A stretch of DNA of 64,000 nt. It comes from an uncultured Candidatus Binatia bacterium. Its GTDB lineage: Bacteria; Desulfobacterota; Binatia; Bin18. A model generated the notes under the pieces. The model made no database searches. It was not told the DNA's origin and saw nothing but the letters and a program-made list of their open reading frames with translations. The position numbers and the translations under genes are program-made. Position 1 is the stretch's first letter, and every line of letters starts with the position of its first letter. Below, piece by piece: positions 16,933-64,000 of the stretch. The DNA lies in assembly GCA_965247985.1 (NCBI GenBank), contig OZ252051.1, positions 252,240 through 316,239 on the forward strand, in the 5' to 3' direction.

Positions 16933-17928
16933 ATGCGGAACGAGCGCGGCGTTGTCCTGCTTGTTGTCATGTGGGCCCTGGTGGTGCTCATGGTTGTTGC
17001 GATTGAGCTGGGCCGTACCGCCCGGGTGGAGGGGCTGAGTACTGATGTCTACCAACAGGAGGTCAAAACCTATTATTTAGCCCTAGCTGGACTGAACCGG
17101 GCACTGTATCAGCTCGTCCAGACGAGCCAGCAGGGCCGCACACGGGATACCCGAGACGATGACCGGCTCGGGCCGCGTGATCGGCTGAATTCTGATGAGG
17201 AAAACCAAGAGGAGTGCCCGGACCCCTGGCTGCTCGGCGACGGACAATGGAAAGATGAACCGTATGGCGAGGGCGGGTATCAGGTCCGCGTCAGTGACGA
17301 GAGCGGTAAAATCAATATCAACCAAGTGGATGAGATTATCTTGCGTCAAACCTTTACCAATCTGGACTTTGATCCGGACTTTGGGGATGCCCTGGCCGAT
17401 GCCATACTCGACTGGCGCGACCCGGATGCGTTAGAGCGGCTGAATGGGGTCGAGAGTGAGTACTACTTGGCGCAAAATATTGCCTATCCGGCAAAGGACG
17501 GACCGTTCGACACGATTGATGAGCTGCTGCTGATTCGTGACGTCACCCAGGAGCTGTTCTACAACACCCTCAATAACGTGTTCACGGTGTATGGGAATGC
17601 ACGAACCGGAAATATGGCCAATGTCCAAACGGCAAACGCCTTGGTGCTCCGGGCCGTACAGGGTATTGATGCGGAAACCGCTGATGAATTGGTCCAGCAA
17701 AGGCAAGAAACCTGCGGGCAAGATTTCCTAGACGCGACTGCTGCCCGGGGAGGTCTCCCCACGCTGGTCACGATAGAGAGCGTCGGCTATCTGCATACCG
17801 GACGTATCACCCGCCGGCTGGCCGGGGTTGTGCACCGCACGGGAGGCCAGTATCAGATGCTGCGCTGGCAAGATCGTCTCCCCTCACCAGCCCTCCCGCT
17901 CAGAAAAGACGCCTTTGAAGACGAGTGA
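16933..17928 (+). CDS. GspK-like minor pseudopilin
   Basis: N-terminus MRNERGVVLLVVMWALVVLMVVAIEL, typical of GspK. ATG at 16933 directly follows the gspJ stop. Confidence 0.7.
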   Translation: MRNERGVVLLVVMWALVVLMVVAIELGRTARVEGLSTDVYQQEVKTYYLALAGLNRALYQLVQTSQQGRTRDTRDDDRLGPRDRLNSDEENQEECPDPWLLGDGQWKDEPYGEGGYQVRVSDESGKININQVDEIILRQTFTNLDFDPDFGDALADAILDWRDPDALERLNGVESEYYLAQNIAYPAKDGPFDTIDELLLIRDVTQELFYNTLNNVFTVYGNARTGNMANVQTANALVLRAVQGIDAETADELVQQRQETCGQDFLDATAARGGLPTLVTIESVGYLHTGRITRRLAGVVHRTGGQYQMLRWQDRLPSPALPLRKDAFEDE

Positions 17929-17969
17929 AGGGGAGGGGTTCTGATCCGGCCCGTCGGATGACGCCCCTG

Positions 17970-17991
17970 GCTAATCCGATCTACGGGACTG
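17970..17991 (-). repeat. REP-like motif R0
   Basis: Minus-strand reading is cagtcccgtagatcggattagc. Confidence 0.7.
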
Positions 17992-17993
17992 TC

Positions 17994-18013
17994 ATTCCTG
18001 CGCAAGCAGGAAT
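17994..18013. repeat. hairpin attcctgc gcaa gcaggaat upstream of the GIY-YIG gene
   Basis: 8-bp perfect inverted repeat with a 4-nt loop. Confidence 0.6.
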
Positions 18014-18026
18014 CCAGGAGTCACCC

Positions 18027-18296
18027 ATGATCGAAAGACAGCCGACCGTGTATATCCTGGCAAGCCACCGCAATGGAACGCTCTATACGGGCGTCACGAG
18101 TCATCTGGTGGCACGAGTGTGGCAGCACAAAAACGACGCGGTTGAGGGGTTTACCAAAAAGTACGGCGTCCACACCTTAGTGTATTATGAAGTGTATGAA
18201 GATATGCTGTCGGCGATCAACAGAGAAAAGCAAATCAAGAAGTGGAAATGGCACTGGAAGCACTCCGCCCACCAAGGGCTGAGCAGCGGGATTTGA
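18027..18296 (+). CDS. GIY-YIG nuclease family protein
   Basis: MIERQPTVYILASHRNGTLYTGVTSHLVARVWQH shows the GIY-YIG motif. It is preceded by the 17994-18013 hairpin and by a REP-like motif. Confidence 0.7.
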   Translation: MIERQPTVYILASHRNGTLYTGVTSHLVARVWQHKNDAVEGFTKKYGVHTLVYYEVYEDMLSAINREKQIKKWKWHWKHSAHQGLSSGI

Positions 18297-20065: not shown

Positions 20066-20087
20066 CAGTCCCGCAGGTCGGATTAGC
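20066..20087 (+). repeat. REP-like motif R2
   Basis: cagtcccgcaggtcggattagc, flanked by the inverted repeat agtcccgcagg (20067-20077) / cctgcgggact (20102-20112). Confidence 0.7.
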
Positions 20088-20176
20088 GGAGCGTAGTCCG
20101 GCCTGCGGGACTGGCGAGTAACAGCGGAATGGCGTAGGGTAGACGCTCTCTTATCCGTTCTACCAAGGACACAGCG

Positions 20177-24930: not shown

Positions 24931-25004
24931 GCCCCCGTAGCTCAGTAGGATAGAGCACCGGATTCCTAATCCGGGTGTCGTGCGTTCGAATCGCGCCGGG
25001 GGCA
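24931..25004 (+). tRNA. tRNA-Arg (anticodon CCU)
   Basis: Cloverleaf with acceptor stem GCCCCCG/CGGGGGC, anticodon loop UUCCUAA and T-loop TTCGAAT. Confidence 0.85.
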
Positions 25005-26370: not shown

Positions 26371-26418
26371 GCAGTATCGAGAATCTCAAATTGAATCAGA
26401 CGTTATTCTCGATACTGC
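26371..26418. repeat. palindromic repeat family 2, copy 1
   Basis: 14-bp perfect arms gcagtatcgagaat / attctcgatactgc around a 20-nt loop ctcaaattgaatcagacgtt. Confidence 0.85.
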
Positions 26419-32687: not shown

Positions 32688-33137
32688 CTACAATGGCCGG
32701 CGGCGGATCATCCGTTTGACAGTATACTCAAGTAAAACAGTGTCATCTTGATTCATAACCTGAGTCAACGAAGTGACCACCCCACGGTCAGGTTTTGAGG
32801 TCTCACGCTTACCAAGAATGTGTACTTTGACATGCACAGTGTCTCCGCAGCGTAATGGCGCCGGGATTTTCATATCTTCAATCCCGAGGAGAGCCATGCC
32901 GCCCTTTGCCATGCCAGACTGCACCGTCAGACCTTCTGCAAGGGCAAAGGTGAACGAGCCTGGCGATATCCGGCCTTCAAACAGGCTGTTGTTTTTAACG
33001 AACTCCATGTCCATGAATAAGGGCTCGTGAAAGCCAAAAAGGTTTACGAAATTGACGATATCCGCTTCGGTTATAGTACGCGCTTTAGTCTCAAACTCCG
33101 CGCCGATTTCATACTCTTCAAAGTATTCGAGTGCCAT
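32688..33137 (-). CDS. MaoC-like (R)-specific enoyl-CoA hydratase, hotdog fold
   Basis: 149 aa MaoC dehydratase pattern. Confidence 0.8.
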   Translation of the reverse strand: MALEYFEEYEIGAEFETKARTITEADIVNFVNLFGFHEPLFMDMEFVKNNSLFEGRISPGSFTFALAEGLTVQSGMAKGGMALLGIEDMKIPAPLRCGDTVHVKVHILGKRETSKPDRGVVTSLTQVMNQDDTVLLEYTVKRMIRRRPL

Positions 33138-33186
33138 ATGCTTTCCTGGGCAAGAGAGTCAGCCAGAAGTCTGCGTGCTTGTGCTA

Positions 33187-33297
33187 AGGAGTAAGCGTAT
33201 CCTCCAAAATGAGTGAACGTGCCCTCCAACGGACATACACATGTTGGCACGTTTACTCATTGACACGCTGAGCTGTTGATACGTTTACTCCTCGGAG
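33187..33297. repeat. palindromic repeat family 1, nested double copy
   Basis: Four arms: aggagtaagcgtatcctccaaaa, tgagtgaacgtgccctccaac, ttggcacgtttactcatt and tgttgatacgtttactcctcggag. They lie in the divergent maoC / asd intergenic region. Confidence 0.8.
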
Positions 33298-33351
33298 AAG
33301 TCAACACTAGGGTGTTGACAATTCGTCCACCCTGGCGTTGTTTTAGCCGTT

Positions 33352-34431
33352 ATGAAAAAGCGTGTCGCCGTTGTTGGAGCAACTGGGATTGCGGGTCAGC
33401 AATTTCTCGTTGCGCTTGAGGACCATCCCTGGTTTGAGGTTGCTGTGCTGGCTGCGTCAGAGCGCTCGGCCGGCAAAAGCTATGCAGAAGCCATCCGCGA
33501 CCCAAAAACGGGAGCGCGGCGCTGGTGGTGCGAGGCAGAACCATCCCAGCCCATGCTGACACTTCCGGTCTACGAAGCGTCGTCTCTGAACCTGAGTGGT
33601 ATTGATCTCGTCTTTACCGCGGTCGAATCAGGGCCGGCGCGAGAACTGGAACCACTGTATGCCAAAACAACACCAGTGGTCAGTACGGCTTCGGCGTTTC
33701 GGCAAGAGGCGGATGTTCCGCTCCTTATTCCGGGTGTCAATCTGGATCATATCTACTTGATCGATACCCAAAAGAAAAATCGTGCCTGGCAAGGCTATAT
33801 TGTCACTCAGCCCAACTGTACCACCATAGGTCTGGCCATTACCCTCAAGCCGCTGTTTGATCAATTCGGTCTGAAAAAAGTCATCATGACCTCCATGCAG
33901 GGGCTATCCGGGGCCGGTCGCTCGCCGGGTGTGATCGCAATGGACACCATAGACAACATCATTCCGTTCATTGCTGGCGAGGAAGAGAAGGTCGAACAGG
34001 AAGGTCACAAAATTCTTGGCAGCCTCGAAAACGGAGCCATTATACCGGCCAACTTTCTCGTCAGCGCAACCTGTACTCGCGTCCCGGTTCTTGAGGGCCA
34101 TACGGAAGCGCTGCTGGTCTCTATGAATACACCCTGCTCTGTCGCGGATGTCCGGGCAGCTATGATCGGATTTGGCCAAGAGTTTATCGAAATGGGCCTG
34201 CCCTCTGCTCCGCGGCATATGATCATCGTGCACGATGACCCCTTTCGGCCCCAGCCGCGCTTGGACCGCGATGCGGAAGACGGCATGGCGACCTCGGTGG
34301 GTCGTCTGCGGCCAGACCATACACTTGAGAATGCGGTGAAATATCTTCTGGTCAGCCATAATACCAAGATGGGGGCGGCCAAAGGCGCAGTACTCACCGC
34401 GGAATACCTGTATCAGCAGGGGTATATATAA
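33352..34431 (+). CDS. asd: aspartate-semialdehyde dehydrogenase
   Basis: 359 aa with N-terminal VAVVGATGIAGQ and the catalytic-Cys region. Confidence 0.9.
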   Translation: MKKRVAVVGATGIAGQQFLVALEDHPWFEVAVLAASERSAGKSYAEAIRDPKTGARRWWCEAEPSQPMLTLPVYEASSLNLSGIDLVFTAVESGPARELEPLYAKTTPVVSTASAFRQEADVPLLIPGVNLDHIYLIDTQKKNRAWQGYIVTQPNCTTIGLAITLKPLFDQFGLKKVIMTSMQGLSGAGRSPGVIAMDTIDNIIPFIAGEEEKVEQEGHKILGSLENGAIIPANFLVSATCTRVPVLEGHTEALLVSMNTPCSVADVRAAMIGFGQEFIEMGLPSAPRHMIIVHDDPFRPQPRLDRDAEDGMATSVGRLRPDHTLENAVKYLLVSHNTKMGAAKGAVLTAEYLYQQGYI

Positions 34432-37116: not shown

Positions 37117-37509
37117 TCACTTCACCCCTGCTGAAGGAGGGGGATCATCATCTTTTTTTGACTCGGCCAAGCTGACTATCACGCAAGCAAGAAGCAGTAA
37201 AGGGACCCCGGCGGCAAAGCTCTTTGCCTGAATTGGGTAGCGAAAAAATATTGCACTCAGCATGACCAGAAAGAGTATTCCCTTGGCAGAAAACCAGAAA
37301 GCTGCCCGAATTTTCGGCCGGCGCTGGGCCTGGGAGGAGGAGAGAGTAGAACGGACCAGTTTTTTAAGCAGCCAGAAATTGGCCTGCATGACGCCTCCGC
37401 CAAGCAGAAAGCTGGGGACGTGGACAATTCCGGTCACTCCTCCGACGAGCGCTCCGGCCCCAAGCAGAACGAGGCTCAGTCGTTCAATCTTCTCGGCTGT
37501 CTTCTTCAC
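37117..37509 (-). CDS. atpI: ATP synthase protein I
   Basis: 130-aa membrane protein upstream of atpB. Confidence 0.6.
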   Translation of the reverse strand: MKKTAEKIERLSLVLLGAGALVGGVTGIVHVPSFLLGGGVMQANFWLLKKLVRSTLSSSQAQRRPKIRAAFWFSAKGILFLVMLSAIFFRYPIQAKSFAAGVPLLLLACVIVSLAESKKDDDPPPSAGVK

Positions 37510-37771
37510 GAGCAGAAAGACGCTGGAGCACGATTATCAGACGATATATCGCTCCTGCCATACCAAAGATCACTCCAATGACCATGAGGAGGGGCGCTGT
37601 ACCAAACTGGGTGTCCGCATAGTTTCCAATAAAGAGACCGGCGACAATGGCTCCGGCAAACTCAAACCCAAGCGCCCCGTACCTTCCATAGGTGACGAAA
37701 AGAGGAAACGTATCCCGCTTTTTTGTATGATTGGAGGACACGTTTCCTCTTTGTGGACTTTCCTGAGCCAT
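37484..37771 (-). CDS. atpZ: AtpZ-like putative F0F1-ATPase-associated membrane protein
   Basis: 95 aa with two TM helices (GALGFEFAGAIVAGLFIGNYADTQFG). Confidence 0.6.
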   Translation of the reverse strand: MAQESPQRGNVSSNHTKKRDTFPLFVTYGRYGALGFEFAGAIVAGLFIGNYADTQFGTAPLLMVIGVIFGMAGAIYRLIIVLQRLSAREEDSRED

Positions 37772-37781
37772 TTTGCCTCGA

Positions 37782-37830
37782 TGAATAAACGTGCCAACAT
37801 CTCAAAGCCTGTTGAGGGCACGTTTATTCA
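37782..37830. repeat. palindromic repeat family 1, copy between hemL stop and atpZ start
   Basis: tgaataaacgtgccaaca tctcaaagcc tgttgagggcacgtttattca. Confidence 0.85.
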
Positions 37831-39114
37831 TTAGCCACGGATATTTTTAAGCACCGTCCTGGCGGCACGTATGGTTTCTTGGATTTCGTCCTCGCTGTGC
37901 GCCAAGGAAATAAAGGCGGATTCGAATTGAGAGGGTGGAAGGTATATGCCCTGCTCAATCATACCGCGAAAGTAACTGGCGAACATTTTTGTATCGCTCT
38001 GAGTTGCCGTGTCATAGTCGCGCACGTGGTCTACCCCAAAGAAAACAGTGAACATCGAACCCATTTGGTTCACACAGGCTTTTATGTCAGTCTCACGAAT
38101 GACATTGCGCAGTCCCTTGGCCAGCATATCTCCAAGCATATTCAGCCTCTCATAGGCTCCAGCGGCGTGAACGAGCTTTAACGTTTCAATCCCAGCGGTC
38201 ACAGCCAACGGATTGCCAGACAGCGTCCCAGCTTGGTAGACCCCCCCCAATGGGGCAAGCACGTCCATTATCGCCGCTTTTCCGCCAACCGCGGCCAATG
38301 GGAGGCCACCGCCCACAACTTTCCCTAAGCAGGTGAGATCCGGATCGATGTTGTAGACCTCTTGAGCTCCGCCACGTGCTACACGGCAGCCGGTCATCAC
38401 CTCGTCAAAGATGAGCACAACTCCCAACTCCCGGGTGAGTTCTCGTAGACCTTCAAGGAAGCCTTGCTCGGGCGGCACGAGGCCCATATTTCCAGGAACA
38501 GGCTCCAGTATGACAGCCGCCACCCCCTCTGAATCAGCCTCTAGATACGCCCGTACACTAGAGAGGTCATTGTACTCCGCCACAAGCGTCAGGCTGCTAA
38601 ATGCCTCGGGAACGCCTTGACTGTCTGGGGTGCTGAGCGTAAGCGCACCGGACCCAGCTCTCACAAGAAGCGCGTCAGTATGACCATGATAGCAGCCAGA
38701 GAATTTTATGATCTTTGCGCGACCAGTATAGCCGCGAGCGAGACGCAGGGCGGTCATGGTCGCTTCTGTACCCGAGGAGGTCAGGCGGACTTTCTCGATT
38801 GACGGAACGGTCTGAGTAAGCGTTCTTGCGAGCTCAATCTCTTTTGCAGTTGGGGCACCAAAACTTGTCCCTTGTTTCACAACCCGCTCAAGTGCACCAA
38901 CAACCTGCGGATGAGCATGTCCTGCTATTAAAGGTCCCCAGGAGCCTACATAGTCTATATACTCGCGCCCATCCGTATCAGTGACGCGACACCCTTTCCC
39001 CCTGTGGATAAAAAGAGGGTCACCACCAACGGCCCGCCACGCACGAACCGGGCTGTTCACTCCACCTGGGATATATTTTTGCGCTTCATTAAAGAGTTTT
39101 TGCGATGTTGACAT
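37831..39114 (-). CDS. hemL: glutamate-1-semialdehyde 2,1-aminomutase
   Basis: 427-aa class III aminotransferase with a canonical HemL N-terminus. Confidence 0.95.
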   Translation of the reverse strand: MSTSQKLFNEAQKYIPGGVNSPVRAWRAVGGDPLFIHRGKGCRVTDTDGREYIDYVGSWGPLIAGHAHPQVVGALERVVKQGTSFGAPTAKEIELARTLTQTVPSIEKVRLTSSGTEATMTALRLARGYTGRAKIIKFSGCYHGHTDALLVRAGSGALTLSTPDSQGVPEAFSSLTLVAEYNDLSSVRAYLEADSEGVAAVILEPVPGNMGLVPPEQGFLEGLRELTRELGVVLIFDEVMTGCRVARGGAQEVYNIDPDLTCLGKVVGGGLPLAAVGGKAAIMDVLAPLGGVYQAGTLSGNPLAVTAGIETLKLVHAAGAYERLNMLGDMLAKGLRNVIRETDIKACVNQMGSMFTVFFGVDHVRDYDTATQSDTKMFASYFRGMIEQGIYLPPSQFESAFISLAHSEDEIQETIRAARTVLKNIRG

Positions 39115-39765: not shown

Positions 39766-41097
39766 ATGTATCGGGTGTGGGAACGGGTGTTGGGGATTGT
39801 TGAGGGAAAAGTAGGAAAGACGAATAGTGAAACCTGGCTAAAACCGATTCGCCCCCTTGGACTACAAGATGACACGTTCCATCTTGAGGTGCCAAGCGCG
39901 CTCTTTAAGGATTGGTTACTCAGTAATCTCGTCGGCCCTTTAGAAAACGCATTGACTGAGGTTCTTGGTCAGCCAACGCACCTCATATTGCATGTACAGG
40001 AAAAACCACAAGGAGAACTCTTCCTGGAAGAAGAGAAAAAACAAACAGCCGAGGAAAAGGAAAAAGGGGGAGGAAAGAGAAACGGACTTATTCAGAACTA
40101 TACATTTTCCTCCTTTGTTGTGGGTGGCGGTAATCAGTTTGCTCATGCCGCGGCTACGGCAGTCAGTAAACACCCAGGGAAAAGCTACAATCCGTTGTTC
40201 ATTTATGGAGGAGTTGGGTTAGGAAAAACTCATCTCATTAATGCTATTGGTCATGAGACATCGATAAAGAAAGGAAAGGACAATATTGTCTATCTTTCTT
40301 CAGAGTCTTTTACCAATGAATTGATTGTTCATTTACGAAAGAACCGGATGACGGAATTTAAAAATAGATTTCGTCGTGCGGATGTTCTCATTCTTGATGA
40401 TGTGCAGTTCCTGTCCGGTCGTGAGCGGACACAGGAGGAATTTTTTCACACCTTTAATTCTCTGCACGAGTCGAGTAAGCAGATTGTATTAACGTCCGAT
40501 AAATTTCCAAATGAGATTGGCGGGCTAGAAGAGCGGTTACGAAACCGTTTTGAATGTGGATTGATTGCTGACATTCAGCCACCCGACCTCGAGACTCGGG
40601 TAGCAATTCTGCAAAAGAAATCACGCGCAAAACGTATCTCCCTCCCCGACGATGTTGCCCTTTTTATTGCCTCTCATGTTACTTCAAATGTCCGAGAGCT
40701 TGAGGGCGGCCTGACGCGATTAGGAGCGCTGGCAGCCTTAAATCAGGCTGATATTACTGTCAACTTTGCACGCCAGGCCCTCCAAAACTTAGTCACAGCC
40801 AAGGAAAAGGAAGTCTCGATTGAGACCGTACAGAAAACTGTGAGTAAGTATTTTGGTGTCAGCGTTGCTGATATTACCTCAAAGAAACGGACAAAGCTGG
40901 TTTTGTTTCCAAGACAGATTAGTATGTTTCTCTGCCGCAAGCTCGCCGGCGCCTCCTACCCAATGATTGGAATGCGATTTGGAGGAAAAGATCATACTAC
41001 GGCTCTGCATGCCTGTACTACCATTGAAAAGCGGTTCAAAAAGGATGAAGAGCTTCGTGATATTATCAATAGAATAGAAATCATGATCTATGATTAG
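39766..41097 (+). CDS. dnaA: chromosomal replication initiator DnaA
   Basis: 443 aa with AAA+ Walker A GGVGLGKTHL and a C-terminal DnaA-box-binding domain. Confidence 0.97.
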   Translation: MYRVWERVLGIVEGKVGKTNSETWLKPIRPLGLQDDTFHLEVPSALFKDWLLSNLVGPLENALTEVLGQPTHLILHVQEKPQGELFLEEEKKQTAEEKEKGGGKRNGLIQNYTFSSFVVGGGNQFAHAAATAVSKHPGKSYNPLFIYGGVGLGKTHLINAIGHETSIKKGKDNIVYLSSESFTNELIVHLRKNRMTEFKNRFRRADVLILDDVQFLSGRERTQEEFFHTFNSLHESSKQIVLTSDKFPNEIGGLEERLRNRFECGLIADIQPPDLETRVAILQKKSRAKRISLPDDVALFIASHVTSNVRELEGGLTRLGALAALNQADITVNFARQALQNLVTAKEKEVSIETVQKTVSKYFGVSVADITSKKRTKLVLFPRQISMFLCRKLAGASYPMIGMRFGGKDHTTALHACTTIEKRFKKDEELRDIINRIEIMIYD

Positions 41098-41497
41098 ACT
41101 GTCTTTCCTGTGGATAACCTGTGGATAACCTGTGGATAACCTGTGGATAACCTGTGGATAACCTGTGGATAACCTGTGGATAACCTGTGGATAACCTGTG
41201 GATAACCTGTGGATAACCTGTGGATAACCTGTGGATAACCTGTGGATAACCTGTGGTCTGGGAAAAGTTATCCACAGGTATCCACAGGTATGGCGAAGTT
41301 ATCCACACCCCCTGTGGATAACTTTTCCCAGAATAAACAAATACTTAACCCACTTATCCACATATCCACAGGCCCTACTACTACTATTAGTACTTCTATA
41401 TATTAATAAGTAGTAGAATAAGTAGTAGTAGTAAGAAAAATGAGAATAAAAATCAGAGAAAAGACTATGGTTAATAAAAGGAAGGAAAGGGGGGTAT
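41098..41497. other. putative oriC in the dnaA-dnaN intergenic region
   Basis: 13-box array, plus boxes at 41268-41276, 41299-41307, 41313-41321 and 41354-41362, then an AT-rich DUE-like tract 41378-41490. Confidence 0.8.
41109..41249. repeat. 13 perfect head-to-tail DnaA boxes (TGTGGATAA) at an exact 11-bp period
   Basis: Unit cctgtggataa x13 followed by a degenerate copy tgtggtctg. Confidence 0.95.
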
Positions 41498-42646
41498 ATG
41501 GAATTCAGCGTCAGTAAGGAAGACCTCCTTCAGTGCCTATATCTAGTCCAGGGTGTTGTTGAAAAACGCTCCTCCCTCCCTATGCTCTCCCATGTTCTAA
41601 TTGAATCTAACTCCACGGAAGAGAAAGATGGAGGCATCTCTCTTGGAGCAACAGATCTTGAAATTGGAATCCGCCAACAATGTCAGGCAGAAGTAAAAGC
41701 GTCTGGATCAATGACAGCAGATGCAAGAAAGCTGTACGAGATCATTCGTGAGCTGCCGTCCGGTCAAGTCTATTTACGCTCAAGTGGAAACGGATGGGTG
41801 GAGGTCAAGAGCGGCAAGTCTCGGTTCCGGATCGCAAGTCTTGATCCCAAGGAGTTTCCCACAATAACAGCACAGAAAGAATCGAGCGAGGAACCTCCTG
41901 CTTCATCATTCCTATCTTTACCTGGACCAACCATGCGGGAGATGATTGAAAAAACCCTCTTTGCAACCTCACCGGACGAGACACGACTGAACCTCAGCGG
42001 TGTCTATCTTGAGACCTCGGCCGAGGGAAAGGTTCGCATGGTCGCCAGTGACGGTCACCGCCTCTCTCTTATAGAAAAAAAAATGGACGCCTCTCCTTTA
42101 CCCGATTGGCCGAGCGTTATCCTTCCGAAAAAGGGTCTGGTGGAAACACGGAAACTTCTTGAACGAAGCGAAGGAACAATAGAGGTCTCCCTCAGCGACT
42201 CGGTGATGAACCTCAAGAAAGAAACAACGGAACTTTTTATGCGTCTGATAGAAGGGGATTTTCCTGACTACCAGCAGGTCGTTCCAAAAGATCATACGCA
42301 CTGCGTTAAGTTTCTCCGAGATGAGCTCCTCTTTGCGCTCCGTCGGATTTTGATTCTGACAACAGAACGATCTCGGGGGGTGAAATTACAGTTCGGGAAG
42401 GACAAGATCGAGGTTTCAGTCAATACTCCAGACGTGGGGGAAGGGACAGAGGAGATTGCGGCTTCATACGCCGGAGATGGATTATCAATCGGGTTTAACG
42501 GGAGATATTTGACAGAGGCATTGAATGTCATAGATGAAGGAGATTCCGTCGTCCTTCTTCTCAAAGATGAGATGAGTCCTGGGCTCCTACAGACGGAAGA
42601 AAACAGTGAATTTTTATATGTCATAATGCCTATGAAAATAAACTAA
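41498..42646 (+). CDS. dnaN: DNA polymerase III beta sliding clamp
   Basis: 382 aa with three-domain clamp architecture. Confidence 0.95.
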   Translation: MEFSVSKEDLLQCLYLVQGVVEKRSSLPMLSHVLIESNSTEEKDGGISLGATDLEIGIRQQCQAEVKASGSMTADARKLYEIIRELPSGQVYLRSSGNGWVEVKSGKSRFRIASLDPKEFPTITAQKESSEEPPASSFLSLPGPTMREMIEKTLFATSPDETRLNLSGVYLETSAEGKVRMVASDGHRLSLIEKKMDASPLPDWPSVILPKKGLVETRKLLERSEGTIEVSLSDSVMNLKKETTELFMRLIEGDFPDYQQVVPKDHTHCVKFLRDELLFALRRILILTTERSRGVKLQFGKDKIEVSVNTPDVGEGTEEIAASYAGDGLSIGFNGRYLTEALNVIDEGDSVVLLLKDEMSPGLLQTEENSEFLYVIMPMKIN

Positions 42647-48231: not shown

Positions 48232-48251
48232 GGGTAGAGCGTTCCGGGAAC

Positions 48252-48286
48252 GGTAAGGGTGGGGCTCACTCCGCCCTTACTTTTTT
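48252..48286 (+). terminator. rho-independent terminator after the peroxiredoxin gene
   Basis: Stem gtaagggtgg / ccgcccttac with loop ggctcact, then TTTTTT. Confidence 0.6.
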
Positions 48287-48519
48287 CCCTCTTTTCCCTG
48301 TGCCACGAGGAGGAGTATCGTGAGGGCCCATATACCAAAAAGCAGCCCGCCAATGACCCAGGGGTAGGGTGGACGCGCGCTCTTTCTGGCAATGAGACCG
48401 CAGGCAATTCCGTCAAGAAAGTGAACAAAGAGCGCAGTCCCAACAAGCGTCGAGAAGTCCATTGTCCCGGCGAGGAAACGTAAGCCGGTGAAATACCCGA
48501 GAAGGATTCCGAAATCCAT
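48277..48519 (-). CDS. small hypothetical membrane protein
   Basis: 80 aa with two hydrophobic segments. No known domain. Confidence 0.35.
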   Translation of the reverse strand: MDFGILLGYFTGLRFLAGTMDFSTLVGTALFVHFLDGIACGLIARKSARPPYPWVIGGLLFGIWALTILLLVAQGKEGKK

Positions 48520-48530
48520 ACTATCTCTCC

Positions 48531-48583
48531 CAGAAGTATCGAGAATATCAAATCGAATCGGAATGTTATTCTCGATACTTCTG
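48531..48583. repeat. palindromic repeat family 2, copy 2
   Basis: 17-bp perfect arms cagaagtatcgagaata / tattctcgatacttctg around loop tcaaatcgaatcggaatgt. Confidence 0.85.
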
Positions 48584-51158: not shown

Positions 51159-52943
51159 ATGATGCTGAAGGCTCGAACTTTCCAAAGAGTAAAGCCGGTT
51201 TTCTTATTGCTGGTCTTGTTCAGTCCTCTTACCGGGCTGGCGTACGGTGCTGATTCGTCCAGTCTCAGAAAGAATTCTCCCTTCATTGCCACCTCCCAGC
51301 ACGGCATGGTTGCTGCCGCGAACGCGCCGGCGAGCGAAGCCGGCGTAGCAATGCTCCGGCGTGGAGGCAACGCGGTTGATGCCGCGGTGGCTGCATCCTT
51401 TGCCATCAGTGTGCTCAGGCCGCAATCAACCGGCATAGGTGGCGGTGGTTTTCTGCTGCTCTATCTGGCGAAAGAACAAAAAACGCTGGCGATTGATTTC
51501 CGCGAACGGGCCCCGCTCAAAGCCACACGAGACATGTTTGTCCGGGACGGAAAAGCCGTCCCCTCCCTGAGCCGAACCGGCCCCCTTGCCGTAGCCGTGC
51601 CGGGCCTTGTTGCCGGACTGGTGGAGGTCCAGCACCGATTTGGGCACCTGCCGCTCGAAGAGGTCATGCAGCCGGCTATCCGCCTGGCAGAAGCCGGCTT
51701 CCCCGTCTATCCGCATTTGGCCAGGGCCATAGCCTACCGAGCTGAGACCTTGGGCGCATCCGAGGCAACCCGGGCGGTGTATTTCCACAACGATCAGCCG
51801 CTTGAGCAAGGCGCCCTCTTTGTCCAAAAAGACTTGGCCAAGACGCTGCGGGCTGTGGCCAAAGCCGGCAAGGATGCCTTTTACACCGGCTGGGTCGCCC
51901 AGGCGCTGGTCACAGAAATGCAACGAACAGGCGGCTTGCTGACCCAGGAAGATTTGGATCAATATCGGGTGATTGAGCGCCTGCCGGTGAGTGGGACTTT
52001 CCAGGGCGCTCGTATTGACGCTATGCCACCGCCCAGCTCCGGTGGCGTCCTGCTGGTGCAGATGCTGAACGTCCTGTCAGGCTTTCCCTTACAAAAGCTG
52101 GGCTTCCAAACTCCCGGTGCAATGCACCTGCTCACCGAAACCCTGCGTCTGGCCTTTCGCGACCGAGCCCAGTATTTAGGCGATGCGGACTTTGTGTCTG
52201 TTCCGGTTGAGCGGCTGGTCTCTCTTCCCTATGCACAAGACCTGCGGGCGAAGATTGATGTGACTCAAGCCACTCCCAGCCAGGGCATTCCGCAAACCCC
52301 AACGGGAAAGGTAGAATCGACGAGTACGACGCATCTTTCCGTGATTGATAAAGCTGGAAACGCCGTCGCCACAACCCAGACGGTGAACTTGTATTTTGGC
52401 AGCGGAGTCATGGTTCCTGGGACCGGTATTATGCTCAACGATGAGATGGACGATTTCAGTGCCCAGCCCGATCAACCCAACGCCTTTGGCCTGATCGGCA
52501 ATACGGACGCGAATGCTATTGCGCCCCGGAAAACGCCACTGAGCAGCATGAGTCCAACCATTGTTACCCGTGACGGCAAGGTCGAACTCGTGATTGGTGG
52601 ACCAGGTGGCTCACGCATTATCAGTTCGGTCCTGCAAGTCATGCTCAATGTCCTGGCCTACAATATGTCCTTGCCGGATGCCATGTTTGCCCCGCGCATT
52701 CATCATCAGTGGTATCCGGACAGGCTGAATCTGGAAGTCCAAACAGGCAGTGAATCGAATGGGCTTGCCGAAGCGCTTCAGACTATGGGCCACACTGTGA
52801 AGGTCGTGGAATGGGGGCCCGGCAAGCGTTCCCGCTTTGGTAACATCCAGGCGATTCATGTTGACCGGGATACAGGTCTGATAACGGGCGTCTCTGACCC
52901 GCGTGGGGAAGGACAACCGCGCGGCTTAGAGAATAAGAAGTAG
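51159..52943 (+). CDS. ggt: gamma-glutamyltranspeptidase
   Basis: 594 aa with a signal peptide and catalytic Thr region TTHLSVIDKAGNAVATT. Confidence 0.9.
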   Translation: MMLKARTFQRVKPVFLLLVLFSPLTGLAYGADSSSLRKNSPFIATSQHGMVAAANAPASEAGVAMLRRGGNAVDAAVAASFAISVLRPQSTGIGGGGFLLLYLAKEQKTLAIDFRERAPLKATRDMFVRDGKAVPSLSRTGPLAVAVPGLVAGLVEVQHRFGHLPLEEVMQPAIRLAEAGFPVYPHLARAIAYRAETLGASEATRAVYFHNDQPLEQGALFVQKDLAKTLRAVAKAGKDAFYTGWVAQALVTEMQRTGGLLTQEDLDQYRVIERLPVSGTFQGARIDAMPPPSSGGVLLVQMLNVLSGFPLQKLGFQTPGAMHLLTETLRLAFRDRAQYLGDADFVSVPVERLVSLPYAQDLRAKIDVTQATPSQGIPQTPTGKVESTSTTHLSVIDKAGNAVATTQTVNLYFGSGVMVPGTGIMLNDEMDDFSAQPDQPNAFGLIGNTDANAIAPRKTPLSSMSPTIVTRDGKVELVIGGPGGSRIISSVLQVMLNVLAYNMSLPDAMFAPRIHHQWYPDRLNLEVQTGSESNGLAEALQTMGHTVKVVEWGPGKRSRFGNIQAIHVDRDTGLITGVSDPRGEGQPRGLENKK

Positions 52944-53029
52944 GGTGCGCCCTGCGCACCAAGCAAAATGGTGCATGGGATGCACCCTACAAAAGGATAA
53001 AGCCAATTTTTACGCGAAGGGAGTCTGCC

Positions 53030-54211
53030 GTGGCGGATTTAATTGATACCGATTTTTACCAAATTGAAGAGCTGCTGAGTGAAGAAGAACGCTTGGTGCG
53101 CGATGTGGCCCGCCGTTTCGTGGATGAAGAATTCATGCCACGCGTTCAGCAGTGTTTCCGTGAGGGCTCTTTTCCTATGGAACTCGTCCCTCGAATAGCC
53201 GAGCTGGGCTTCCTCGGTATTACTGTTCCAACCGAATACGGTGGCGCCGGCATGAACAGCGTTATCTACGGCTTGGTCAGCCAGGAGTTGGAGCGCGGGG
53301 ATAGTGGGTTGCGCTCCTTTGCCAGCGTACAGTCGTCATTGGTGATGTATCCGATTTTGACGTTCGGCTCGGAGGAGCAAAAGAAATTCTGGCTGCCACG
53401 TCTGGCTCAGGCTGAGGCTATTGGCTGCTTTGGACTGACGGAGCCGGACTTTGGCTCGAATCCGGGTGGGATGATAACCCGCGCCCGGAAAGAAAACGGC
53501 GGCTATGTCCTCAACGGCACCAAGCGTTGGATCACCAACGGGTCAATCTCTGATGTTGCCGTGGTGTGGGCCAAGCTTGAAGAGGATGGCAAAGATGTGA
53601 TTCGTGGCTTCCTGGTTGAAAAAGAACGGGCCGGCTTCACCCGGCAAAACATTGATGGGAAATTCAGTTTTCGGGCGTCCGTGACTTCGGAGCTTATTTT
53701 CGAGGATTGCTGGATTCCTGAAGACAATCTTCTCCCCAAGTCGGGTGGCCTCAAATCCCCGCTCATGTGTCTGACCCAAGCCCGCTACGGTATTTCCTGG
53801 GGTGCAACTGGGGCTGCCATGGCCTGTTATGAATGCGCGGTCGATTACGCCCAGAATCGAAAGATGTTCTCGCGGCCGATTGGGGGTTATCAGCTCGTGC
53901 AGGCCAAACTGGTGACGATGCTGACGGAGATTACCAAAGCGCAACTTTTAGCCTATCGGCTTGGCCGGCTCAAAGACGCCGGCAAGATGCGACCGGACCA
54001 CGTCAGCATGGCGAAGATGAATAATGTTTCGACCGCGTTGCACACTACGCGGCTCGCTCGGGACATTCTCGGTGGGAACGGCATCACGGATGAGTATCCG
54101 ATTATTCGACATCTGCTCAACCTTGAGACGGTCAATACCTACGAAGGCACCGAGGATATCCACCGCTTGACGCTCGGTCGCTATATTACCGGGCTGAGTG
54201 CGTTTGAGTGA
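53030..54211 (+). CDS. acyl-CoA dehydrogenase (glutaryl-CoA DH-like)
   Basis: 393 aa with ACAD domains. Confidence 0.85.
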   Translation: MADLIDTDFYQIEELLSEEERLVRDVARRFVDEEFMPRVQQCFREGSFPMELVPRIAELGFLGITVPTEYGGAGMNSVIYGLVSQELERGDSGLRSFASVQSSLVMYPILTFGSEEQKKFWLPRLAQAEAIGCFGLTEPDFGSNPGGMITRARKENGGYVLNGTKRWITNGSISDVAVVWAKLEEDGKDVIRGFLVEKERAGFTRQNIDGKFSFRASVTSELIFEDCWIPEDNLLPKSGGLKSPLMCLTQARYGISWGATGAAMACYECAVDYAQNRKMFSRPIGGYQLVQAKLVTMLTEITKAQLLAYRLGRLKDAGKMRPDHVSMAKMNNVSTALHTTRLARDILGGNGITDEYPIIRHLLNLETVNTYEGTEDIHRLTLGRYITGLSAFE

Positions 54212-54912
54212 GCGCTTTGGCGTATCAGGCAAAGAGTAAACGTGCCAACAGCTTTGTATGTGTTGGAGGGCACGTTTACTCTTCGGAGCCGATTGAGGTC
54301 GTCATCGGCGTCCGCACGCTTACCCTGCTCAGAGTAAAAGACCTGGAGCGCTATGTTGACCGTGAGGCCCTGCTGCGCGACGACACCGAGGAGCCGCCGT
54401 ACTGGGCCCATTTGTGGACGGGCGCTCTGACCCTGGCGCGCCATATTAACGCTTGCATTGATGTTCGAGACCAGACTGTGCTCGATCTCGGTTGTGGACT
54501 TGGGTTGACGGGCATCATCGCCGCGCAAAAAGGGGGGCGGGTCACCTTTGCCGACAAGGAAGCCAACGCGGTGTCCTTTGCGCAGGAGAACGCGCGGCTC
54601 AACGGATGTGCGCAATACGAAGCACGCCCGCTCGACTTTACCCAGGACGCACTGGATACACGTTTCTCGCTCATCTTTGGTGCGGAGATTTTATACGATA
54701 GGCCGACCTTCCCTGCCCTCGTGCATTTTCTCGCAACGCATCTCTCCTCCGACGGACGGGCTATCCTGTCCGATGCCAAACGGACGAATACCCAAGACTT
54801 CTACCACCAACTTGACCAAGCCGGCTTGCGGTGGACTCGGAAAGAAATACGCGAGCGAGAAGACAATCTGCCCCTGCCGGTCAGCATTGTCACCATATGC
54901 GGGAGCGTGTAG
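54208..54912 (+). CDS. class I SAM-dependent methyltransferase (Methyltransf_16-like); start uncertain
   Basis: PYWAHLWTGALTLARHI and SAM motif VLDLGCGLGLTGI. The only in-frame start before the conserved region is GTG 54208, which overlaps the ACAD stop. Confidence 0.65.
   Translation: MSALAYQAKSKRANSFVCVGGHVYSSEPIEVVIGVRTLTLLRVKDLERYVDREALLRDDTEEPPYWAHLWTGALTLARHINACIDVRDQTVLDLGCGLGLTGIIAAQKGGRVTFADKEANAVSFAQENARLNGCAQYEARPLDFTQDALDTRFSLIFGAEILYDRPTFPALVHFLATHLSSDGRAILSDAKRTNTQDFYHQLDQAGLRWTRKEIREREDNLPLPVSIVTICGSV
54233..54283. repeat. palindromic repeat family 1, copy inside the 5' end of the methyltransferase ORF
   Basis: gagtaaacgtgccaaca gctttgtatg tgttggagggcacgtttactc. Confidence 0.85.
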
Positions 54913-63325: not shown

Positions 63326-64000
63326 TTAGGCGGAAAAGCTCTCGTTGAATTCTTTTAGCGCAGTGTCCATACGTCCGGTGAGATCATCATCAAGGGCACC
63401 CTTGGTGATGATCTCAGAGTAGATGTCAGGGTGAGAATTTTCGATGAAGCGGACGAGCTCCGACTCATATTGGGGGATCGAAGGCTCCGGGATTTCATCC
63501 AGATAGCCATTGGTGCCGGCGTAGATCATGACGACTTGGCGCTCGACCGAAAGTGGCTGATACTGCCCCTGCTTGAGGATCTCGACTAAGCGCGTGCCGC
63601 GTGCCAGCATCCGCTGCGTGGCCACATCCAAGTCAGACCCGAATTGTGCAAATGCTGCCATTTCGCGGTACTGCGCCAGGTCAAGTCGCAGAGACCCTGC
63701 GACTTGTTTCATGGCTTTAATCTGGGCGTTCCCACCCACCCGGGAGACCGAGATACCAACGTTCACGGCTGGTCGTACACCGGAGAAGAATAGATCAGAC
63801 TCTAAGAATATCTGCCCGTCAGTAATAGAAATAACATTGGTCGGAATATAAGCGGAGACGTCTCCGGATTGTGTTTCAATGACGGGGAGGGCGGTTAACG
63901 ATCCGCCCCCCTGGGCGTCGCTCATTTTTGCCGCGCGCTCTAACAACCGTGAATGGAGATAAAACACGTCACCCGGAAAGGCTTCACGGCCTGGCGGGCG
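63326..64000 (-). CDS. atpA: F1 ATP synthase subunit alpha, C-terminal part (5' end beyond window)
   Basis: The translation matches the alpha C-terminal domain. The gene continues past 64000. Confidence 0.9.

What the first reader, a model, noticed from the sequence alone, without database searches (positions are those of the whole stretch)
33187..33297. Palindromic repeat family 1 (GAGTAAACGTGCC...GGCACGTTTACTC), three intergenic loci
About 50-bp imperfect hairpins with conserved arms occur at 33187-33297 (a nested double copy between the divergent maoC and asd genes), at 37782-37830 (between the hemL stop and the atpZ start) and at 54233-54283 (after the acyl-CoA DH stop). The copies share the flanking CTCYTCGGAG. 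They are candidates for REP/MITE-like elements, protein-binding operators or structured RNA such as a terminator or attenuator. The TGGCACG in the arm was checked against sigma-54 -24/-12 spacing and does not fit.
Basis: seen in the sequence. Interest (0 to 1): 0.55.

Follow-up and report, generated by a model that had tools for sequence, protein, structure and literature searches.

The report
Mobile 54-base hairpin repeat of Binatia
The palindromes are copies of a small mobile DNA hairpin (54 bases, REP/MITE-like) found only in a group of uncultured Binatia bacteria; related genomes differ cleanly in which sites carry a copy, including a few sites inside genes.

Summary
The window holds five copies, not three: 54231-54284, 33208-33261 nested inside 33185-33207+33262-33292, 37780-37832 and 37699-37752. 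The oriented consensus is A[A/T]GAGTAAACGTGCC-AACAnCTTTGTATnnGTT-GGAG-GGCACGTTTACTC[T/A]T. A scan of 185,579 species genomes found the motif essentially only in 13 Binatia MAGs. Alignments with congeneric genomes (79-92% nt identity) show clean filled and empty sites with no target-site duplication. The maoC-asd spacer is empty in six relatives, holds only the outer copy in one, and holds outer plus inner in the window, which proves the nested insertion. Inserts are 53-55 nt, usually 54 (18 codons). One copy splits the hemL stop codon and re-creates it. Another adds 18 in-frame residues to AtpZ. Orientation relative to transcription is random (18:18), copies flip in place, and stems show compensatory changes. 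This is a new REP/MITE-like non-autonomous element family, not an operator, terminator or known RNA. The mobilising enzyme was not found. A single-strand hairpin (Y1/RAYT-like) transposase is the best guess. The kind of element is ordinary; the family is new. Interest is moderate.

The parts
54231..54284 (+). Family-1 copy, 54 nt, near-consensus (AAAGAGTAAACGTGCC-AACAGCTTTGTATGTGTTGGAG-GGCACGTTTACTCTTC). It lies 20 nt after the acyl-CoA dehydrogenase stop and upstream of a methyltransferase gene. The GGAG bulge is on the + strand.
   Evidence: I18; 78.3 bits; -28.6 kcal/mol. An orthologous copy is present in L022, L023, L027 and L034.
33208..33261 (-). Inner family-1 copy (ATGAG subtype, 54 nt), inserted into the loop of the outer copy. 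Among the genomes compared it is found only in the window.
   Evidence: I20; 73 bits on the - strand. It is absent from L043, which has the outer copy alone.
33185..33292 (-). Outer, diverged family-1 copy (TAAGGAGTAAGCGTATC...GATACGTTTACTCCT). It is split into 33185-33207 and 33262-33292 (23 + 31 = 54 nt) by the inner copy. It lies between the divergent maoC and asd starts.
   Evidence: whole nest -51 kcal/mol. L043 carries it uninterrupted (54 nt). The site is empty (GTGC|CGGAG) in L042, L044, L045, L055, L056 and L057.
37780..37832 (+). Family-1 copy (ATGAAT subtype, 53 nt) inserted inside the hemL stop codon (T|GA). Its terminal AA re-creates a TAA stop at 37831-37833, and the atpZ ribosome-binding site and start follow it.
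   Evidence: I19; 61 bits. It is absent in L042, L044, L045 and L057, the site is deleted in L056, and a flipped copy is present in L043.
37699..37752 (+). Family-1 copy of the GAGGAAACGT(A/G)TCC subfamily (54 nt), lying in frame in atpZ after codon 6. It adds the 18 residues QRGNVSSNHTKKRDTFPL.
   Evidence: I12; 45 bits; Pfam PF09527 starts at residue 28 instead of 10. It is present in L045, L056 and L057 and absent in L042, L043 and L044.
32688..33137 (-). maoC-like dehydratase gene (flanking gene; its start faces the nested copies).
33352..34431 (+). asd, aspartate-semialdehyde dehydrogenase (flanking gene).
37484..37771 (-). atpZ (PF09527, ATPase_gene1), which carries the in-frame copy.
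37831..39114 (-). hemL-like class-III aminotransferase. Its stop codon is rebuilt by the element.
53030..54211 (+). Acyl-CoA dehydrogenase gene upstream of copy 54231-54284.

Best explanation
These are copies of a previously undescribed family of small non-autonomous mobile palindromic elements (REP/MITE-like) that is specific to one lineage of Candidatus Binatia.

The unit is about 54 nt. It has a 16-bp stem (AAAGAGTAAACGTGCC / GGCACGTTTACTCTTT, or the ATGAG...CTCAT, AAGCG...CGCTT, GAGGAAACG...CGTTTCCTC and ACGTGTCC...GGACACGT subfamilies). The stem encloses a ~22-nt interior with a short inner stem and a conserved one-sided TTGGAG(G) bulge.

Shown here:
- Copies are gained, and apparently lost, at exact nucleotide positions without target-site duplication.
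- They can land inside another copy, inside a stop codon, or in frame inside a gene.
- They can be inverted in place.
- Subfamilies keep the stem paired through compensatory changes.

Inferred: the element is recognised as a folded single-stranded DNA hairpin and moved in trans by a host-encoded enzyme. The most likely candidate is an HUH/Y1 tyrosine transposase of the RAYT / IS200-IS605 type, which excises and inserts seamlessly. The invariant arm sequence and the bulge would be the protein recognition features.

Effects on neighbouring genes (an mRNA hairpin after stop codons, 18 extra residues in AtpZ) are side effects filtered by selection, not the reason the sequence exists.

Confidence is about 0.8 that it is a mobile or indel-dynamic non-autonomous repeat family, and about 0.4 that the enzyme is Y1/RAYT-like.
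For: Statistics and structure:
- Searches give the motif excess, arm complementarity and fold energies.

Lineage restriction:
- The pattern scan of 185,579 species genomes gave 41 loci. 34 of them, in 13 Binatia MAGs, share the full consensus including the loop and bulge. The other 7 share only the forced bases, which matches my own estimate of roughly 9 chance hits for that pattern.
- Covariance model R1 found 5 copies in the window (4 compact hits plus the split outer copy) and about 60 distinct copies in ~410 kb of Binatia loci.

Filled versus empty sites among congeners at 79-92% nt identity:
- maoC-asd site: empty in 6 relatives, outer copy only in L043, outer plus inner in the window.
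- hemL-stop site.
- atpZ site.
- Sites A, B and C near window 48.2-49.7 kb, where relatives carry copies and the window does not.
- GlcE-like gene in L043.
- Insert lengths are 54, 54, 54, 53, 55 and 54 nt, with no duplication longer than 1-2 nt at any junction.

Possible seamless loss:
- The atpZ copy occurs in the window's clade and in the L044/L045 clade (window, L045; L056 and L057, not placed in a clade, also carry it) but is missing from L042, L043 and L044.

In-place inversion:
- L034 versus L022/L015 at site C, the window versus L043 at the hemL stop, and L002 versus L005.

Stem maintenance:
- Column pair 7-60 reads AU:21, UA:10, GC:2. Subfamily arms are compensated.

Context and literature:
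- There is no strand bias relative to the mRNA (18:18), and copies occur in every intergenic context.
- The REPIN/RAYT literature describes the same logic: hairpin-forming non-autonomous elements exploiting an IS200-like Y1 transposase (PMC3337134). [quoted passage not shown]
Against: - No transposase was found. There is no Y1/RAYT hit by tblastn with E. coli RayT in the window or in any held locus (best E = 0.29).
- About 40 window ORFs scanned against Pfam include no transposase.
- Genes between neighbouring copies are housekeeping genes.
- No long element bounded by the arms was found.
- The architecture differs from published REPINs. It is one hairpin, not two short palindromes in inverted orientation, and it has no GTAG-type head.
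- Six insertion junctions show no conserved target tetra- or pentanucleotide of the kind IS200/IS605 elements need.
- Copy number may be only tens per genome. Complete relatives have 3-5 strict-pattern copies each.
- Patchy distribution could partly reflect homologous recombination between co-occurring lineages rather than excision. The loci look mosaic, for example L057.
Confidence: 0.8

Rival explanations
1. The hairpins are host-selected structured RNA elements (terminators, attenuators or mRNA-stabilising 3' hairpins). They would be conserved because they regulate neighbouring operons, and their repetition would reflect convergent use of one good hairpin.
For: - Most copies lie in co-directional gene pairs just after a stop codon. 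36 of 63 are co-directional, and in at least 11 the stop lies in the arm.
- The folds are very stable on both strands.
- At site A the window has an ordinary hairpin plus T-run where relatives carry a copy.
- The copy after the acyl-CoA dehydrogenase gene is retained in all five genomes compared.
Against: - There is no U-tract, and the terminator scan gives no call at any copy in the two window regions scanned.
- Orientation relative to the mRNA is 18:18, although the element is asymmetric.
- Copies lie between divergent starts and inside coding sequence.
- Close relatives lack the copies at the same operon junctions without any replacement.
- Sequence is conserved across unrelated loci, not merely structure.
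- No Rfam family matches.
Confidence: 0.08
2. It is a classical MITE: an internally deleted derivative of a DDE-transposase insertion sequence. The 16-nt arms would be the terminal inverted repeats, and the parent IS would move the element by cut-and-paste.
For: The terminal inverted repeats are conserved across copies. The element is small, non-coding and multi-copy. Presence/absence polymorphism is seen.
Against: - None of six filled/empty comparisons shows a target-site duplication.
- 54 nt is far below usual MITE sizes.
- No longer element with the same ends occurs in ~480 kb.
- Compensatory stem changes and the conserved interior bulge point to a folded substrate rather than two independent ends.
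Confidence: 0.08
3. The palindromes are operators for a dimeric or tetrameric DNA-binding regulator that controls a regulon (fatty-acid, amino-acid or energy genes).
For: The half-sites are palindromic and invariant. One copy pair lies in the divergent maoC-asd promoter region.
Against: - The maoC-asd site is empty in six of seven relatives, while the promoter-like palindrome next to it is conserved.
- The half-sites are ~38 nt apart centre to centre, with a paired interior.
- Copies lie after stop codons and inside genes of unrelated function.
- The paired positions of the two arms change together, which base pairing explains and independent half-site binding does not.
Confidence: 0.03
4. The palindromes are coincidental.
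For: None.
Confidence: 0.005

Closest known systems
REP elements / REPINs mobilised by RAYT (Y1 HUH) transposases (E. coli BIMEs, Pseudomonas REPINs; PMC3116915, PMC3337134)
   Same: Both are short hairpin-forming imperfect palindromes. Both are multi-copy, mostly extragenic and lineage-specific, and both persist across related species. Both lack a target-site duplication, show excision/insertion polymorphism, and form clusters and compound arrangements. Here, subfamilies have compensated stems.
   Different: This element is a single 54-nt hairpin whose 16-nt arms have no palindrome of their own. It is not a doublet of two short palindromes (~90 nt). It has no GTAG-like head. Density is apparently much lower. 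Some copies lie in frame inside genes. No RAYT gene was found in the DNA available.
Rickettsia palindromic elements (RPE; summarised in PMC10969869)
   Same: Both are palindromic selfish repeats that can insert in frame into protein-coding genes and are tolerated as extra peptide segments. Here that applies to AtpZ and a GlcE-like oxidase, and probably to Lnt and an ArnT-like transferase.
   Different: RPEs are ~100-150 bp, occur in an unrelated phylum, and show no known sequence relationship. Here most copies are intergenic.
IS200/IS605-family ends and their miniature derivatives (PATEs)
   Same: Both involve an imperfect hairpin with an extrahelical feature that is recognised as single-stranded DNA, and seamless insertion and excision without duplication. 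This comparison rests on my own knowledge of the family.
   Different: Those elements insert 3' of a fixed tetra- or pentanucleotide. No such target is visible at the six junctions examined, and there is no associated tnpA or tnpB.
Bacterial MITEs with TIR + TSD (Correia/CREE, ERIC, Chunjie; PMC10969869)
   Same: Both are small non-autonomous repeats in operon spacers that can supply stops or starts and leave operons intact.
   Different: Those MITEs create target-site duplications and are at least ~100 bp. These copies create none and are 54 nt.
Repeat-type terminators (SPRITE; paired DNA uptake sequences)
   Same: Both are repeated stem-loops placed after genes.
   Different: These copies have no U-tract, are not restricted to 3' ends of transcription units, and occur in both orientations and inside genes.

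Membership tests
REP / REPIN-RAYT system | Short imperfect palindrome able to form a hairpin in single-stranded nucleic acid | tested here: met
   The stem is 16 bp with 94% of cells paired. MFE is -21 to -29 kcal/mol with z down to -7.8.
REP / REPIN-RAYT system | Many dispersed, mostly extragenic copies within a genome | tested here: inconclusive
   There are 5 copies in 64 kb, and about 60 distinct copies in ~410 kb of related loci. Complete relatives show only 3-5 strict-pattern copies each. Whole genomes could not be scanned with the model.
REP / REPIN-RAYT system | REPIN architecture: two REPs, each with its own short palindrome, in inverted orientation around a spacer | tested here: not met
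   Each arm (AAAGAGTAAACGTGCC) has no internal palindrome. The whole element folds as one hairpin. The definition is taken from PMC3337134.
REP / REPIN-RAYT system | A single-copy RAYT (HUH/Y1) gene flanked by copies of the repeat | tested here: inconclusive
   None was found in the window or in any held locus. This rests on tblastn with E. coli RayT (best E = 0.29), Pfam scans of window ORFs and inspection of ORFs between copy pairs.
REP / REPIN-RAYT system | Insertion and excision without target-site duplication | tested here: met
   Six filled/empty junction sets show no duplication longer than 1-2 nt.
REP / REPIN-RAYT system | Conserved GTAG-type tetranucleotide at the 5' foot of the hairpin (from my own knowledge of enterobacterial and pseudomonad REPs) | tested here: not met
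   The flanks outside the stem are not conserved. The stem begins A[A/T]GAG.
MITE (DDE-IS derived) | Target-site duplication flanking each copy | tested here: not met
MITE (DDE-IS derived) | A parent IS with the same terminal inverted repeats | tested here: inconclusive
   No arm pair 0.1-3 kb apart occurs in ~480 kb. Whole genomes were not searchable.
Intrinsic (rho-independent) terminator | GC-rich stem-loop followed directly by a U-run, at 3' ends of transcription units | tested here: not met
   No terminator call falls on any copy in the two window regions scanned. Copies also lie between divergent starts and inside ORFs.
RPE-like in-frame palindromic elements | Insertion inside ORFs that keeps the reading frame | tested here: met
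   AtpZ gains 18 residues. The GlcE-like oxidase in L043 gains 18 residues. Probable decayed cases occur in Lnt and an ArnT-like gene.
RPE-like in-frame palindromic elements | Sequence relationship to Rickettsia RPE families | not tested
   No RPE sequences were compared. A relationship is not expected, given the phylum and the size.
Known RNA families (Rfam 15) | Match at the gathering threshold | tested here: not met
   Only a tRNA at 24931-25004 matched.
Transcription-factor operator / regulon | Fixed position relative to promoters of functionally linked genes, conserved in relatives | tested here: not met
   The contexts are mixed and the sites are dispensable in relatives.

The most novel reading that the evidence does not exclude
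This could be a hairpin transposon of a new type. It would be an exactly 18-codon element, stop-free in at least two of its reading frames, that can live inside genes as well as between them. It would be inserted and removed seamlessly by an enzyme that is not a canonical RAYT or IS200-family protein, since there is no GTAG head, no fixed target, no doublet architecture and no RAYT in view. A second, unrelated 54-nt palindrome family in the same genomes would use the same length-constrained machinery.
Probability: 0.15. Interest if true: 0.6.

Novelty: new member of a known kind. Interest (0 to 1): 0.4.

Why it matters
It adds a documented mobile repeat family to Binatota, a phylum known only from metagenomes, for which the paper search turned up no report of such repeats.

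The filled and empty sites give unusually clean natural experiments. They include a nested insertion, a stop codon that is split and rebuilt, and an 18-residue in-frame addition to AtpZ that is polymorphic among close relatives.

Practical uses follow:
- The repeats explain spurious ORF extensions and start-codon miscalls in these MAGs.
- They are a likely source of assembly breaks.
- They could serve as strain markers.

If the mobilising enzyme is found, the system could extend the REP/RAYT paradigm beyond Proteobacteria, or reveal a different hairpin-handling enzyme.

Tried and rejected
- **Canonical terminator.** The scan gave no call at any copy in the two window regions scanned.
- **Rfam.** There was no match.
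- **Insertion into pre-existing hairpins.** Two cases suggested this: the nested copy, and site A in L015, where the joined flanks fold at -22.7 kcal/mol. Over 60 copies, however, joined flanks are no more structured than nearby control DNA (Mann-Whitney p = 0.99). I rejected it as a general rule.
- **Strand-specific RNA function.** The bulge orientation relative to the mRNA is 18:18.
- **RAYT or other transposase.** I checked ORFs between close copy pairs, ran tblastn with E. coli RayT against all held DNA and scanned about 40 window ORFs against Pfam. Nothing was found.
- **Long parent element bounded by the arms.** None was found.
- **JGI metagenome pattern scan.** Only one true family member came back (L049), so it added nothing.
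- **Target-site consensus.** The junction flanks (GTGC|CGGA, CCAA|TACA, GACGA|GTGGA, CCTC|AGC, GCTGC|AATC, GGTCG|TCCGC) share nothing obvious.
- **Literature.** 'Binatia' plus 'palindromic' returned nothing relevant.
- **parS-like or origin-linked site.** I considered this because the window holds dnaA and oriC. I rejected it because copies in complete relatives are spread over megabases.

Full report
**Observation.**
The three loci read as described. GTAAACGTGCC with at most one mismatch occurs six times in the window, as three inverted pairs. The expectation is 0.58, and none of 100 shuffles reached six. The inverted-repeat finder lists the three hairpins, with 15-16-nt arms at 94-100% complementarity and 21-22 nt between them. 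It also lists a fourth, related hairpin at 37699-37752 (AAAGAGGAAACGTATCC / GGACACGTTTCCTCTTT). Both strands of every copy fold strongly (-21 to -29 kcal/mol, z -2.9 to -7.8), and the nested structure at 33180-33300 folds at -51 kcal/mol. Rfam finds nothing there at gathering thresholds.

**Family and distribution.**
A pattern scan of one genome from each of 185,579 species (AACGTGCC-N14-30-GGCACGTTTAYTC) returned 41 loci. Of these, 34 come from 13 MAGs labelled Candidatus Binatia. One of the 13 is labelled Thermodesulfobacteriota but shares orthologous flanks with the others. The remaining 7 loci (Mycobacterium, Emticicia and others) share only the bases the pattern forced. That is about the number I estimated for chance matches to this pattern.

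When oriented, all Binatia copies share much more than the pattern demanded. The consensus is A[A/T]GAGTAAACGTGCC-AACAnCTTTGTATnnGTT-GGAG-GGCACGTTTACTC[T/A]T. It has a conserved interior and a one-sided GGAG bulge.

A covariance model built from these copies (R1) finds four compact copies in the window. With the interrupted outer copy, that makes five. It also finds about 60 distinct copies in ~410 kb of Binatia loci. These include a second large subfamily with ACGTGTCC...GGACACGT arms, and variants whose stems are compensated: ATGAG/CTCAT, AAGCG/CGCTT and GAGGAAACG/CGTTTCCTC. In loci fetched without regard to the repeat, density ranges from 0 to 4 copies per ~21 kb. Complete relatives carry only 3-5 strict-pattern copies, spread over megabases. 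The genome-wide number is therefore uncertain, from tens to perhaps a few hundred.

**Gene context in the window.**
- The nested pair lies between the divergent starts of a maoC-like gene and asd.
- Two tandem copies lie at the hemL-atpZ junction of a hemL-atpZ-atpI-atpB-atpE string, next to dnaA-dnaN-gyrB.
- One copy lies 20 nt after an acyl-CoA dehydrogenase stop.

**Decisive comparison.**
Loci from congeneric genomes are collinear with the window at 79-92% nucleotide identity. They show clean filled and empty sites.

1. *maoC-asd spacer.* Six relatives read GTGC|CGGAGAAGTCAAC with no element. L043 carries one 54-nt copy. The window carries that copy with a second 54-nt copy inside its loop. 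The nested insertion is thus documented step by step.

2. *hemL stop.* In empty alleles the gene ends AGC TGA, followed by GGTAAAATG, which holds the atpZ start. In the window and L043 a 53-nt copy sits between the T and the GA. Its terminal AA re-forms a TAA stop at the same codon, so hemL stays at 427 codons.

3. *atpZ.* A 54-nt copy follows codon 6 and is read through in frame. It adds QRGNVSSNHTKKRDTFPL, and the Pfam domain start shifts from residue 10 to residue 28. It is present in the window, L045, L056 and L057 and absent from L042, L043 and L044. The window groups with L042 and L043, and L045 groups with L044, so both clades hold filled and empty alleles. That implies an old insertion with several seamless losses, or allele exchange by recombination.

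4. *Sites near 48.2-49.7 kb.* Relatives carry copies at three sites where the window has none. At one of these sites, the copy in L015 sits inside a terminator-like hairpin.

5. *GlcE-like oxidase in L043.* The gene has gained 18 in-frame residues from a 54-nt copy. Decayed copies appear to be translated in an Lnt gene and an ArnT-like gene.

Insert lengths are 54, 54, 54, 53, 55 and 54 nt. No junction shows a duplication beyond 1-2 ambiguous bases.

Three orthologous copies are inverted in place between species, including their arm mismatches.

**What it is not.**
- The copies are not canonical terminators. They have no U-run and no scan call falls on a copy in the two regions scanned.
- They show no strand preference relative to transcription, with 18 versus 18 in co-directional pairs. 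They occupy co-directional (36), convergent (8), divergent (7) and coding contexts.
- An operator model fails. The sites are dispensable in close relatives, and the conserved promoter-like palindrome next to the asd site (GTCAACAC-N4-GTGTTGAC) stays put whether or not the element is present.

**Mechanism.**
*Shown:*
- exact gain, and probably loss, without target duplication;
- tolerance of insertion into a hairpin loop, a stop codon and reading frames;
- maintenance of the stem by compensatory change;
- a conserved asymmetric bulge.

*Inferred:* the element is handled as a folded single strand by a trans-acting enzyme. The best match in known biology is the REP/REPIN-RAYT and IS200/IS605 logic. 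In it, a Y1 HUH transposase recognises an imperfect hairpin (PMC3337134). Seamless excision and insertion by such enzymes is my own knowledge of the family. RAYT systems are also vertically persistent within lineages (abstract of bioRxiv 10.1101/2022.05.22.493013), as this family appears to be.

*Not shown:* the enzyme. No Y1/RAYT or other transposase occurs in the window or in any held locus. There is no parent element with the same ends, no fixed target sequence, and no GTAG head. The architecture is one hairpin rather than a REP doublet. I therefore file it as REP/MITE-like in behaviour, not as a proven REPIN.

The idea that it targets pre-existing hairpins was tested and rejected as a general rule.

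**Novelty and verdict.**
The paper search found no description of such repeats in Binatia. The kind of element, a small palindromic non-autonomous mobile repeat, is well known. The family itself is new, as are the 18-codon unit and the in-frame and stop-codon insertions. I rate it a new member of a known kind, of moderate interest. The open question is which enzyme moves it.

Noticed in passing
window 48531-48583 and 26371-26418: A second, unrelated palindrome family (AGAAGTATCGAGAAT...ATTCTCGATACTTCT). The copy at 48.5 kb is a clean 54-column gap, the same length as family 1. It is present in the window and L023 and absent in L015, L034 and L036. It has only two copies in the window and is almost absent from the other loci.
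   Followed up: partly
window 39766-42646: Replication-origin region. It contains dnaA (39766-41097), then a perfect 22-nt inverted repeat carrying a DnaA-box-like TTATCCACA (41257-41278 / 41311-41332), then an AT-rich TACTAC-type palindromic stretch (41375-41433), then dnaN (41498-42646) and gyrB.
   Followed up: partly
window 33300-33320: Palindrome GTCAACAC-TAGG-GTGTTGAC, containing TTGACA, just upstream of asd. It is conserved in all seven relatives whether or not the mobile element is present. It is likely the asd promoter or operator.
   Followed up: no
window ~48234-48295: An ordinary terminator-like hairpin plus T-run (GTAAGGGTGGGGCTCACTCCGCCCTTAC-TTTTTT) between convergent genes. In L015, L034 and L036 the homologous hairpin carries a family-1 copy inserted 3 nt into its 3' arm.
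   Followed up: partly
L056:14286-14360: In this relative, the ~27 nt between the atpZ-borne copy and the hemL stop are deleted. That stretch holds the atpZ start codon and its first six codons. No atpZ gene was called there.
   Followed up: no
L043:7834-7895; L026:5756-5817 (= L008); L019:4940-5001: Family-1 copies translated in frame inside a GlcE-like FAD oxidase (KSKRIESFGSSGGHVCSF), an Lnt-like gene (KSQRVLHSDDKAGDDDSF) and an ArnT-like glycosyltransferase (MSQRALQQPSDVGHVSPF). All three use the same reading frame of the element. Only the first was checked against an empty allele.
   Followed up: partly
window 17925-18296: A small stand-alone GIY-YIG nuclease-domain ORF (123 aa) directly after a type II secretion/pilus gene cluster. 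No link to the repeats was established.
   Followed up: no
window 52940-52990, 20066-20113, 63379-63416: Other strong, unrelated intergenic hairpins listed by the inverted-repeat finder (I10, I7, I9). They were not examined.
   Followed up: no
window 24931-25004: A tRNA gene, the only Rfam match in the window.
   Followed up: no
L042-L045, L057: The relatives are mosaic. L044 and L045 encode an identical Asd protein but are only ~90% identical overall. L057 resembles L042 at the asd spacer and L045 at atpZ. This suggests frequent homologous recombination among co-occurring Binatia lineages.
   Followed up: no
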